DNA of 64,000 nucleotides from the human T2T-CHM13v2.0 reference genome, Homo sapiens. Below are positions 19,560-22,734 of the stretch, one piece after another. A program made the translations under genes and the position numbers. Below the pieces are notes generated by a model. It was not told where the DNA came from and did not search any database. It saw only the letters and a list, made by a program, of their open reading frames with translations. Position 1 is the first letter of the stretch. Every line of letters begins with the position of its first letter. The stretch lies in NCBI RefSeq assembly GCF_009914755.1, contig NC_060931.1; one strand, 5' to 3'.

Positions 19560-20430
19560 ATCCCTGCTCCTCATCTATTATGTGCCAGAGTATACAATGA
19601 ATGATAGATAAGCCAGCAAGTTTCTTGCCTCATGGAACTTTTATTGTAGTTGGAGATATAGACAACAAACAAGTAATTAGTAATAAATGTACATTAGGAA
19701 ACACAGGGTTTGCTAAAGATAACAGGGGCACTTGTGTTAGGCTGGGTAGGAAAGATTACTTTAAGGAGTTAAAATTGCGGGGATGAGAAGGAGCCTGCCA
19801 CAGGACTAGCCAAGTCAAGATACTCTCGCCTCTCTCTTAGGAGAACCCCTTTTTTTAAGTTTCATTAGGCCCACATGGATAATCCAGGATAATCTCCCAT
19901 CTCAAGATCTTTAATGTTATCACATCTATGATGTTCCCCTTACCATGTAAGGTGGCATATTCATAGGTTCTGGGGATAAGGACATTGACATCTTTGGAGA
20001 CTATTTTCAGCCTACCACAGGTGGTAATAAGGAAGGAGAAAAGGGTAGACATAGTAGTGGTTAAACATTGTAGAACATGTGAAACTTTCTTCTGCTTCAG
20101 GCCTTTGCATTTATTGTTTGGTGTGACTGACTGAAAGCCTTCTACTAGCAGTTGTGATTGGTACTAAATCTGGCCATTTCTTCATACTCACGTGAAGAAT
20201 AAACATTGGGTGTGGCATTTCAAATAATAACCCTATGTCCTATAGTTAGTAGGTCCATTCAAAGTAAGGAATCAGTAACAGGCTGTTTTTTGTTTGTTTG
20301 TTTGTTTGGCTGGGAAAGAGGGACTTTCTTGGCAGGACATTGGGCCAAGCCTGTAGAGCCGGAGTTGACTACTAGTGTTGTTTTGGTGGAATGGTAGTAG
20401 AAGCAACACAAGACTGCAGACAGCTTTAAT
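19560..20430 (-). mobile_element. L2 fragment disrupted by an inverted insertion
   Basis: Degenerate L2 3'-end motifs (tatgtgccag...gcctcatggaactt; gttttggtggaatggtag...agactgca). Confidence 0.6.
19819..20069 (-). repeat. Inverted duplicate of 22477-22724 (flank plus 5' part of an MLT1 LTR)
   Basis: Reverse complement aligns end to end; ORFs 19855..20052(-) and 22494..22706(+) translate almost identically. Confidence 0.95.
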
Positions 20431-20639
20431 CTTTCTGTCACTTGGACCCTGACTGGAGGGTGGTATTGAGAAGGTTGACATGGCTTCTGGAAAAGAGTGC
20501 CGTGATTATTATCCTTGCCTGCTGAGGTGCAACACTGGGAGGGTGCTATAAGTTTGCTGATCTTGGCATAGGTGCTGCATTACATAGGCTGTTTATATTC
20601 TCTAAAGTTGAATTATTGTGATCAGCATTGAGCGATAGA

Positions 20640-22085
20640 ACTTAATGTGATCATATATTCATTTTTTTTAATCTTACAACCTTGCTGGACTCATTATTTA
20701 GTTCTAAGAGTATTTTAGTGGATTCTGTAGGATTTTTCCTGTGTGAGATTACATCATCTGTAAAATAAGATAGTTTTACTTTTCTCCTCTCCAATATGAA
20801 TGCATTGTATTTCTTTTTCTTGCCTAATTGCCCTGGACAGAAATCCAGTACAATGTTGAATGGAAGTGGCAAGAGCAGGCATCCTTTTCTTGTTCCTGAT
20901 CTCAAGGCAAAACATTTCAGTCTTTCACCATTATGTATGATGTAACTGTGTTTTTTTCCTTGATACTCTTTTTTTTTTTTTTAAAGTCAAGGTCTCTGTC
21001 TGTCACGCAGGCTGGAATGCAGTGGCATGATCATGGCTCACTGCAGCCTTGAACTCCCAGTCTCAAGCAATCCCCCACCTCAGCCCCCTGAGTGGCTTGG
21101 ACTACACGCATATGCCATCATGCTCAGCTAAATTTTTTTGAATTTTAATAGAGATGGGGTCTCAGTATGTTGCCCATGCTGGTCTCAAACTCCTGAGCTC
21201 AAGTGATCCTCCTGTCTTGGCCTCCCAAAGTGCTGGGATTACAAGCATGAGCCATAGTGCCTGGCTTTCCTTAATACTCTTTAACAGGTCGAGGAAGTTC
21301 CCTCCGTTCCTAGTTTACTGACTGTTTTTATCATGAAAGAGTGTTGAATTTTGGTAAATGCTATTTCTCTGACTATTGACATGATGATTTGTTTTGTGTC
21401 ACTTATCCCATTTATATGTTATTTGGTTATTGATTGATTAACAATTGACATTGATTTTTGTATATTGAACCAATTTTTCAACCCTTGGAAAAATTTCAGT
21501 TGGTCAAGTTGTATGATCTTTGTATGTATTGCTGTACTCAGTATGCTAGTATGTTGCTGAGGATTCTTAGGTTTATATTCATAAGGGATATTGGTCTTTA
21601 CGGTCTGTAGTTTTCTTATGATGTTTTTGGTGTCTGAGTAACATTTGCCTCATAGAAAGAGTTGAAAAGTATTCCCTCCTCTCCTTGCTTTTGGAAGAGT
21701 TTGTGAAGAATTAGTACTAATTTTTCTTTTATTGTTTGGTAGAATTCATCATTGAAGCTTAAAAAAAAAAGAAAACAAAGCCTAGGTTGTTCCCCCACTA
21801 AACTTTAAACTCATTCTGCTGAATTTTGTGGTTGCCAGGCTGCTAGTATTTAGTTACTAATGAGGCTGTTGGTTCTCAAGCCTGGTAGAAGTGGATGTTA
21901 ACACAGCAAGTTAAGATGTCACAAAGCTTGCCGGTCTTATTAAAATTCAGGGTTTTTTTTTCTTGGATAAAAACTCATCAGTTATTGCAAGGCTTTAGTT
22001 AATTTCCAGAGTTTTCAAAAATTTGATTTTGGGAATTTTTGCCAGTGTTCTTGTTGCTTTTATGGCAGAAGGCTTTATTTCATCT
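20640..22085 (-). mobile_element. Old L1M fragments interrupted by an AluJ (20968-21265, - strand)
   Basis: ORF2-like translations (RSGTRKGCLLLPLPFNIVL; FYQTIKE...LFQK...NSFYEA); Alu TSD ttcctt(g/a)atactcttt. Confidence 0.85.
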
Positions 22086-22129
22086 TTTTTGAGTGTGCTT
22101 ATTACCGACACCTATAATTTAAAATTCCC

Positions 22130-22395
22130 TATTAGCCCCATTAAAAAAATAAAGAGGAACAGATGAGATTAATTTTGATTATATATTTTATTCAACCAAA
22201 TATATCCAAAATATTTTCCTTTCAAAATGTAAAATTTGTATAAAATTAATAATTATTTTACTTTTTTCTTATATGATGTCCTTCAAGTTTTATATGTAGT
22301 TGTACATTTACAACACATCTTAATTTGGAATATTGCCATCAAAGTCTCAATAGCCACATGTGGGCAGTGGCTATTGTAATGGCTAGAATAGTCTT
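22130..22395. mobile_element. MER33-like hAT-Charlie element
   Basis: caaatatatccaaaatatt ... ctcaatagccacatgtgg.cagtggcta. Confidence 0.65.
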
Positions 22396-22734
22396 AGAAC
22401 ACAGAAGAATGGGCTGATGCTTTGAAATTTCAGTCTTTTCTTTCTTCCTTCCCCACTCATGTTGAAAGTGAAAAATAATGTTTAACCACTACTATGTCTC
22501 TTTCCTCCTTCCGTATTATCACCTGTGGTAGGCTGAAAATAGTCTCCAAAGATGTCAACGTCCTTATCCCCAGAACCTATGAATATGCCACCTTACATGG
22601 TAAAGGGAACATCATAGATGTGATTAAATTAAAGATCTTGAGATGGGAGATTATCTTGGATTATCCATGTGGGCCTAATGAAACTAAAAAAAAAAGGTTC
22701 TTGTAAGAGAGAGGCGAGAGTATCAGAATCATTA

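What the first reader, a model, noticed from the sequence alone, without database searches (positions are those of the whole stretch)
19819..22724. ~250-bp inverted duplication across a 2.4-kb spacer, copying an LTR junction
19819-20069 is the reverse complement of 22477-22724 at roughly 90% or more identity by eye. It includes about 47 bp of non-LTR flank (aatgtttaaccactactatgtct...) and the first 200 bp of the MLT1 LTR, so it is a local copy rather than a second LTR insertion. It has no poly(A) or TSD and stops about 10 bp short of the MER44 terminus. This suggests a replication template switch (FoSTeS/MMBIR-type) or a Tigger-end-associated rearrangement. It creates a non-Alu dsRNA stem in the pre-mRNA and a substrate for inverting 20070-22476.
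Basis: partly seen in the sequence, partly recalled or inferred. Interest (0 to 1): 0.7.

Follow-up and report, generated by a model that had tools for sequence, protein, structure and literature searches.

The report
Inverted local copy of LTR end
A 250-base piece made of the end of a very old retrovirus-like repeat plus its unique neighbouring DNA was copied once, backwards, 2.4 kb away inside an intron of the human SUGCT gene; it is real but an ordinary small rearrangement with no sign of function.

Summary
Window 19819-20069 is the reverse complement of 22477-22724: 235 of 248 aligned bases are identical (94.8%), with one 3-bp indel and sharp edges. The 38 other genomic copies scored are only 74-83% identical, and none covers the last about 47-50 bases. 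Those bases occur nowhere else in the genome at this sensitivity.

Arm 2 is the source. It is the end of one roughly 490-bp solo LTR on the minus strand, with TG..CA ends and a 5-bp target duplication. That LTR is split by a MER44-like element, which itself carries a young L1. The names "MLT1 type" and "MER44" are recalled; no tool here names repeats.

Arm 1 is a DNA-level inverted copy of the last about 201 LTR bases plus host flank, with no poly(A) and no target duplication. K2P distance is 0.0545, which gives roughly 12-55 Myr and about 23-27 Myr at commonly used primate rates.

Strand skews suggest the spacer was not inverted. That favours a templated insertion over a staggered-break inversion, but primate orthologues are needed to decide. 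Neither junction shows microhomology. The dsRNA potential is real but no greater than that of neighbouring Alu pairs. Interest is low.

The parts
19819..20069 (+). Arm 1, the derived inverted copy (251 bp). 19819-20019 is LTR-derived. 20020-20069 is copied target duplication plus host flank.
   Evidence: Sequence left of it (19520-18818 side, i.e. 19520-19818) and right of it (20070-20400) is unique in the genome. No LTR match from 10 other copies passes 19819.
20070..22476 (.). Spacer of 2407 bp. It is unique sequence plus an old L1-like piece (about 20651-20953 and 21265-21759) split by an Alu-like element (about 20954-21264), and an old repeat at 22150-22407.
   Evidence: T>A and G>C on the + strand in its repeat-free parts (z = 4.1 and 3.0), the same sign as the gene-wide skew.
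22477..22724 (-). Arm 2, the source segment (248 bp). 22524-22724 is LTR. 22477-22523 is target duplication plus host flank.
   Evidence: LTR homology of 4 of 10 other copies runs on past the arm edge to 22727-22731.
22524..22732 (-). Terminal piece of the solo LTR, ending ..CA at 22524. It contains the LTR part of arm 2.
22519..22523 (-). Target-site duplication beside the ..CA end of the LTR. Four of its 5 letters equal the other copy; the arm-1 copy at 20020-20024 has 5 of 5.
   Evidence: Direct reading.
22733..22937 (-). One end piece of a MER44-like (Tigger7-derived, name recalled) non-autonomous DNA transposon, including its TA target.
   Evidence: 6 matches within query 151-292; ends at 22731-22738 in 4 of 6 copies.
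22919..25180 (+). 5'-truncated L1 with its A-rich tail near 25150-25165, nested in the MER44-like element. Bounds are those of the soft-mask block and are good to about 20 bp.
   Evidence: mask; 32 L1-like matches at 96-100% over the first 61-72 bases; tail read.
25125..25273 (-). Other end piece of the same MER44-like element.
   Evidence: 5 other copies, 74-77%; in 3 of 5 fetched copies this piece and the 22738-22837 piece lie side by side in the same orientation.
25274..25556 (-). The other piece of the same solo LTR, starting TG at 25556-25555. Homology to other copies is shown for 25281-25556.
   Evidence: 7 of 10 copies match 25350-25556 in the order and orientation expected from arm 2; 39 matches within 25281-25560.
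25557..25561 (-). Target-site duplication beside the TG end of the LTR.
   Evidence: Direct reading.

Best explanation
A MER44-like DNA transposon later split it, and a young L1 then entered that transposon. Much later a 248-251-bp stretch was copied once, at the DNA level, and placed in reverse orientation 2.4 kb away. The stretch runs from 8 bp inside the LTR beside the transposon end, through the LTR terminus and its 5-bp target duplication, into about 42-45 bp of unique host DNA. It was placed between what are now 19818 and 20070. Arm 2 is the template and arm 1 the product.

The most likely process is a templated insertion: either a replication template switch to the opposite strand and back, or gap-filling synthesis at a break using nearby DNA, sealed without homology. 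The spacer kept its orientation. Both copies have since drifted neutrally. The only consequence is an extra long inverted repeat in the pre-mRNAs of SUGCT and LOC105375245.

Shown: the copy, its source, the nesting order and the absence of retroposition marks. Inferred: the date, the enzymatic route and the uninverted spacer.
For: The arms are much closer to each other (94.8%) than to the 38 other scored copies (74-83%), and none of those 38 reaches beyond query base 212 of 251. The flank is unique to the two arms.

Source polarity. Matches of 4 of 10 other copies run past the arm-2 edge to 22727-22731, while 0 of 10 pass the arm-1 edge. In 7 of 10 copies the remaining LTR part matches 25350-25556 in the right order and orientation. 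L001 has 102 bp between its two matches, against about 96 bp of LTR in the window once the nested elements are set aside. The LTR has TG..CA ends and a 5-bp duplication. The nest is shown. There is no poly(A) and no direct repeat at arm 1.

Drift on both arms. Of 10 LTR-part differences, arm 1 looks derived at 6, arm 2 at 3 and 1 is undecided.

Spacer orientation. Its repeat-free parts have TA skew +0.164 and GC skew +0.151 on the + strand, the same sign as the window (+0.084, +0.048). None of 103 sliding windows has both skews negative.
Against: No outgroup genome could be read, so the pre-event arrangement is inferred from one genome. Neither arm-1 junction shows microhomology of 2 nt or more (reading), which a microhomology-mediated switch would predict; blunt joining or later drift must be assumed. 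The skew argument is statistical, rests on about 1 kb, and ignores local heterogeneity. Own-genome searches score only the 40 best candidates and skip very common words, so 'unique' means unique at that sensitivity. The date assumes no gene conversion between the arms.
Confidence: 0.6

Rival explanations
1. Micro-inversion by staggered breaks. The 2.4-kb spacer plus the 250-bp segment was cut with a staggered break around the segment at one end and a plain break at the other. The overhang was filled in and the piece rejoined in reverse. This leaves the segment at both ends in inverted orientation, which is the model proposed for Drosophila inversions.
For: The anatomy fits. An inverted duplication of ancestrally unique sequence bounds a segment exactly, with joins that show no homology. 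In Drosophila such duplications have a median of 321 bp (range 46 bp to about 1.9 kb), and in 12 inversions only one breakpoint region is duplicated (PMC1885836, passages). Arm 2 staying continuous with its outer flank is compatible with this model.
Against: The spacer's strand skews have the sign expected for DNA long transcribed in its present orientation. T>A has z = 4.1 and G>C has z = 3.0 in its repeat-free parts, and 0 of 103 windows of the gene region have both skews negative. No repeat is split across the predicted old junctions, because all four junction flanks are unique, so there is no positive evidence for inversion.
Confidence: 0.2
2. An older duplication whose arms have been kept similar by gene conversion, so that 5% divergence understates its age. 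The event might then date from the time when Tigger-type transposase was still active, and might have been triggered at the MER44-like end.
For: The arm edge lies 8-10 bp from the transposon end. Inverted repeats 2.4 kb apart can in principle exchange sequence. Print places MER44/Tigger7 after MLT1B and before AluSx in the order of activity (PMC1914374, passages).
Against: Differences are spread along the whole arm, 10 in the 201 LTR bases and 3 in the 47 flank bases, with no long identical tract beyond 44 bp. Both arms carry derived states, 6 against 3. That is what simple drift gives. I estimate by rough reasoning, not by a call, that a breakpoint lands within 10 bp of some repeat junction by chance about 5-10% of the time in DNA this rich in repeats.
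Confidence: 0.1
3. Two independent insertions of one repeat family whose consensus includes the 'flank', or the terminal inverted repeats of a 2.9-kb DNA transposon.
For: The arms are terminal and inverted, and most of each arm is repeat-derived.
Against: The flank and the arm-plus-spacer unit have no other copy in the genome. Other LTR copies are at most 83% identical and stop at the LTR end. There is no target duplication outside the arms. Arm 2 is continuous with the rest of a solo LTR that has its own 5-bp duplication.
Confidence: 0.02

Closest known systems
Template-switch mutations that create inverted repeats (four-point model; FoSTeS/MMBIR at larger scale)
   Same: A stretch of nearby DNA is copied in reverse complement into a new place. 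This makes a new inverted repeat able to form an RNA hairpin. Event classes exist with and without an inverted spacer (PMC5453318, passages).
   Different: The published short-range events are tens of bases within one fork. Here 250 bp were copied across 2.4 kb. No microhomology is visible at the joins. The event is old and fixed in this reference, not a human-chimpanzee difference as far as can be told here.
Inverted duplications at inversion breakpoints from staggered breaks (Drosophila melanogaster group)
   Same: Inverted copies of ancestrally unique sequence a few hundred bp long sit exactly at the two ends of a segment, with non-homologous joins (PMC1885836, passages).
   Different: Those bound large chromosomal inversions shown by outgroups. 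Here the segment is 2.4 kb, no outgroup was available, and strand skews argue that it is not inverted.
Solo LTR of ERVL-MaLR, MLT1 group
   Same: It has TG..CA ends and a 5-bp target duplication, no internal region, and thousands of diverged copies in the genome. It is nested under younger elements, as print orders them (PMC1914374). Most MLT1 members are eutherian-wide (PMC10735291).
   Different: Nothing unusual in the LTR itself. The subfamily could not be named because no repeat library is on hand.
Intronic inverted Alu pairs as double-stranded RNA and editing substrates
   Same: Two inverted copies in one intron a few kb apart are predicted to pair over more than 200 bp.
   Different: The arms are not Alu and are more alike: 94.8% against 71-85% for the other 24 pairs shown. 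No editing data could be consulted.

Membership tests
ERVL-MaLR solo LTR (MLT1 group) | LTR begins TG and ends CA | tested here: met
   TG at 25556-25555 and CA at 22525-22524 on the minus strand. Matches of other copies stop at these points.
ERVL-MaLR solo LTR (MLT1 group) | Short target-site duplication on both sides (5 bp for this class, recalled) and no internal region between | tested here: met
   The 5-mers at 25561-25557 and 22523-22519 agree in 4 of 5 letters. The arm-1 copy of the second one (20020-20024) agrees in 5 of 5. The flank after it is unique host DNA.
ERVL-MaLR solo LTR (MLT1 group) | Many dispersed, strongly diverged copies | tested here: met
   38 other scored copies at 74-83% from 1713 candidates. 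39 at 72-80% from 2441 candidates for the other LTR piece.
ERVL-MaLR solo LTR (MLT1 group) | Match to a curated MLT1 consensus, and which subfamily | not testable with these tools
No repeat library (Dfam/RepeatMasker) is on hand. The soft-mask table carries no names and does not cover the LTR. Two look-ups of the founding paper failed.
Templated inverted insertion (template switch / MMBIR type) | Reverse-complement copy of nearby sequence that includes non-repeat DNA | tested here: met
Templated inverted insertion (template switch / MMBIR type) | No marks of transposition (target duplication, poly(A), element ends) | tested here: met
   Reading of the arm-1 junctions. The copy starts inside the LTR and ends in host DNA.
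Templated inverted insertion (template switch / MMBIR type) | Microhomology of a few bases at the switch points | tested here: inconclusive
   0 nt is shared at either junction between recipient and template context. After about 5% drift, a 2-3-nt homology could have been lost.
Templated inverted insertion (template switch / MMBIR type) | Recipient site intact and spacer uninverted in species that predate the event | not testable with these tools
   No primate genomes are available. Indirect skew evidence favours an uninverted spacer.
Staggered-break inversion with breakpoint duplication | The segment between the inverted copies is inverted relative to the ancestor | tested here: inconclusive
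   Only strand skews could be used, and they speak against inversion. No split repeat spans the predicted old junctions.
DNA transposon with long terminal inverted repeats | Target duplication outside the arms and other copies in the genome | tested here: not met
   No direct repeat outside the arms. No other copy of the flank or of the arm-adjacent spacer.

The most novel reading that the evidence does not exclude
The inverted pair is the scar of a fixed 2.4-2.65-kb micro-inversion made by staggered breaks in a catarrhine ancestor. This is the mechanism described for Drosophila inversions, here seen at kilobase scale in a human intron. Possibly one break was set by the hairpin-prone end of the Tigger7-derived element 8-10 bp away.
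Probability: 0.15. Interest if true: 0.4.

Novelty: new member of a known kind. Interest (0 to 1): 0.2.

Why it matters
It is a clean, datable example of a non-homologous inverted duplication in the human lineage. The source, the product and both junctions are still legible, because half of the copied piece is an old LTR that can be polarised against other copies and the other half is unique DNA. Such cases help calibrate how large and how far-reaching templated insertions can be in the germline. Beyond that it adds one more long inverted repeat to an intron already full of inverted Alu pairs. There is no evidence that it affects SUGCT. The LTR is a gene-less solo LTR of a long-dead family.

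Tried and rejected
Chance or a family-level repeat is rejected. A larger duplication hidden at lower identity was considered because MAFFT aligned a few letters outside the arms. It is rejected because 19520-19818 has no MER44-like or LTR-like match in the genome (17 matches, none crossing 19819). A second retroposed LTR or retrocopy is rejected: no poly(A), no target duplication, and host flank is copied.

The transposon-with-TIRs reading is rejected (see the membership test). Link to a known RNA family: 0 Rfam matches at gathering score in 19000-26000. I looked for a split repeat to decide between insertion and inversion. It led nowhere, because all four junction flanks are unique and the old L1-like pieces inside and outside the spacer are not collinear in either orientation.

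Naming the subfamily from print failed. The founding paper (Smit 1993, recalled) is not held under the two ids I tried. The papers I read list names and ages but print no sequence I could compare. Locus-specific literature: 'SUGCT' with 'inverted repeat' finds 0 papers in the searched library. Supplements were not asked for. The supplementary event catalogue of PMC5453318 and Table S5 of PMC1885836 might refine the size comparison.

Papers were seen as follows. Passages only: PMC5753468, PMC10735291, PMC5453318, PMC1885836, PMC8755829, PMC1914374. Search listing with start of abstract only: 10.1101/2021.12.20.472354 and PMC11724301. The mutation rates used for dating, the 5-bp rule for this ERV class, the database orientation of MLT1, the minimal homology needed for recombination and the slow decay of transcription-linked skews are all recalled, not from calls.
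Full report
**1. Is it there?** Yes, at the stated coordinates. The repeat finder gives 19819-20043 against 22500-22724 (225 nt, 94% complementary) and 20047-20069 against 22477-22499 (23 nt, 100%). The two blocks are offset by a 3-bp indel. A global alignment of the full arms gives 235 of 248 ungapped columns identical (94.8%), 8 transitions, 5 transversions, one 3-bp gap, a longest identical run of 44 and a K2P distance of 0.0545. With 40 extra bases on each side, identity stops abruptly at both ends. 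In 12000-32000 this is the only inverted pair above 85% complementarity among the 25 shown of 29. The others are Alu-like pairs at 71-85%.

**2. Is it more than two copies of a repeat?** A whole-genome search with arm 1 scored 40 of 1713 first-look candidates: itself, arm 2 (94%, E = 6.4e-103) and 38 others at 74-83% identity.
- None of the 38 extends past query base 212 of 251.
- 33 of them end at or before base 204, and the LTR ends at base 201.
- A query running from the LTR end into the spacer beside arm 1 (20005-20400) found only itself, arm 2 over bases 1-65, and two 30-base low-complexity hits.
- The mirror query beside arm 2 (22150-22540, minus strand) found arm 1 over bases 1-64, and otherwise only an old repeat within query 119-391, that is within 22150-22422.

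So the last 47-50 bases of the arms are single-copy DNA shared only by the two arms. These searches score only the best candidates and skip very common words, so 'unique' holds at that sensitivity.

**3. What is the remnant?** I fetched ten other copies with 500-bp flanks and compared them with window 17000-28000.
- All ten match both arms.
- In 7 of 10 the part of the LTR that lies beyond the arm matches 25350-25556, in the order and orientation expected if arm 2 and that stretch are one LTR on the minus strand.
- Four of ten matches run past the arm-2 edge to 22727-22731. None of ten passes the arm-1 edge at 19819.
- A genome search with 25170-25760 (minus strand) gave 39 matches at 72-80%, all within 25281-25560.

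Between the two LTR pieces lie three stretches. The first is a piece of a short DNA transposon whose matches end at 22731-22738 in 4 of 6 fetched copies. The second is a 5'-truncated L1, about 22919-25180, sense on the plus strand, whose first 61-72 bases are 96-100% like 32 scored copies. The third is the other piece of the same transposon at about 25125-25273. In 3 of 5 uninterrupted copies the two transposon pieces lie side by side. L001 has 102 bp between its two LTR matches, and the window has about 96 bp of LTR in the same interval once the nested elements are set aside.

On the minus strand the LTR starts TG at 25556-25555 and ends CA at 22525-22524. The five bases before the start (25561-25557) recur after the end (22523-22519) with 4 of 5 letters alike. 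The arm-1 copy of that 5-mer (20020-20024) has 5 of 5. This is a solo LTR of about 490 bp with a 5-bp target duplication and no internal genes. No reading frames were listed and nothing was translated.

**4. Family and age of the remnant.** No tool here names repeat families. The soft-mask table has no names and does not even cover the LTR. The nested element is of the MER44 kind. The subfamily cannot be given without a repeat library.

Print says MaLR LTRs are classed under ERVL-like elements, and that MER44A-D are non-autonomous derivatives of Tigger7 (PMC5753468, passages). All MaLR members other than the eleven primate-specific ones, MLT1A1 and MLT1C2 are widespread in eutherians and absent from opossum (PMC10735291, passages). 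An interruption-based chronology places MLT1J at position 32, MLT1B at 154, Tigger7 and MER44a-d at 213-220 and AluSx at 317 (PMC1914374, passages). That order, LTR then MER44 then young L1, is exactly the nesting seen here. The 72-83% identity to other copies fits an insertion around the eutherian radiation.

**5. Which arm is the copy, and how old is the copy?** Arm 2 is continuous with the rest of its LTR on the outside and carries the LTR's target duplication, so it is the source. Arm 1 sits between two unique sequences and is the product.

Of the 10 differences in the LTR part, polarised by counts in ten other copies, arm 1 looks derived at 6, arm 2 at 3 and 1 is undecided. The 5-mer comparison adds one more derived state to arm 2. 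Both arms have therefore drifted, with no marked asymmetry. Differences are spread evenly: 10 in 201 LTR bases and 3 in 47 flank bases.

K2P of 0.0545 (standard error of p 0.014) gives 54, 27, 23 and 12 Myr at 0.5, 1.0, 1.2 and 2.2 x 10^-9 per site per year (the rates are recalled). My reading is a catarrhine-age event of about 25 Myr, older if the arms have exchanged sequence. It is far younger than the MER44-like insertion, so the transposon was already in place when the copy was made.

**6. Mechanism.** The copy begins inside the LTR, 8 bp from the TA target of the transposon, and ends in host DNA. It has no poly(A) and no flanking direct repeat, so it is a DNA-level event and not transposition. 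Two known routes give this anatomy.

(a) Templated insertion. This is a switch of a growing strand to the opposite strand nearby and back, or fill-in at a break from a nearby template (PMC5453318; MMBIR papers seen as listings).

(b) Inversion of the spacer by staggered breaks with fill-in. This leaves the staggered stretch at both ends in inverted orientation (PMC1885836: median 321 bp, range 46 bp to about 1.9 kb, and only one breakpoint region duplicated in 12 inversions).

The two differ in whether the spacer is inverted relative to the ancestor. Without outgroup genomes I used strand composition. The repeat-free parts of the spacer (1015 bases) have TA skew +0.164 (z = 4.1) and GC skew +0.151 (z = 3.0) on the SUGCT sense strand. 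That is the same sign as the whole window (+0.084, +0.048). None of 103 sliding windows of the same length has both skews negative, and none has TA skew at or below -0.18. An inverted spacer would have had to start from a composition not seen anywhere in this window.

I therefore favour (a) at about 0.6 and give (b) about 0.2. Against the microhomology-mediated version of (a), I read no shared bases at either junction. The joins look blunt, or the homology has been lost through drift. The nearness of the transposon end is suggestive but could be coincidence. I give a causal role little weight.

**7. Consequences.** Both arms lie in the 42-kb SUGCT intron between the exons at 7970-8113 and 50222-50317, and in an intron of LOC105375245 on the other strand (gene table). 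As RNA, the arms can pair over 237 base pairs at -420 kcal/mol, against a mean of -75 (sd 6.9) for 100 shuffles. An Alu-like pair 797 nt apart in the same intron gives 277 pairs and -471 kcal/mol. So this stem adds little to what the intron already has. Editing data were not available. As a recombination substrate the arms are now poor, with 44 bp of longest uninterrupted identity. No Rfam family matches 19000-26000.

**8. Verdict.** It is a new instance of a known kind of rearrangement. I found no paper on it ('SUGCT' with 'inverted repeat': 0 papers). Interest is low.

Noticed in passing
window 12000-32000, e.g. 16677-16992 / 17790-18105: The same intron holds many Alu-like inverted pairs (29 pairs of 60 nt or more). 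The closest pair is 316 nt, 83% complementary, 797 nt apart, with a predicted duplex of -471 kcal/mol.
   Followed up: partly
window 22919-25180: A 5'-truncated L1, sense on the plus strand with its A-rich tail near 25150-25165, is nested in the MER44-like element. Its first 61-72 bases are 96-100% like 32 scored copies, so it is of primate age, roughly comparable with the duplication. No link between the two events was shown.
   Followed up: partly
window 22150-22407: An old interspersed repeat lies just inside arm 2 (38 scored matches at 68-80% from 199 candidates). Its family was not named.
   Followed up: no
window 19819-20069, 22477-22732, 25274-25556: The RefSeq soft-mask intervals (100 bases or more) cover none of the LTR pieces, so that mask misses old repeats and cannot be used to call a stretch 'unique'.
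   Followed up: yes
window 22904-22937 and 25125-25162: One stretch of an uninterrupted MER44-like copy (L017 659-692) matches both sides of the L1. This may be the L1's target-site duplication or only AT-rich low complexity.
   Followed up: no
window 30081-30140 / 30210-30269: A direct 60-nt repeat, 85% alike, 129 nt apart, beside a GT run and about 300 bp from the LOC105375245 exon at 30571-30658.
   Followed up: no
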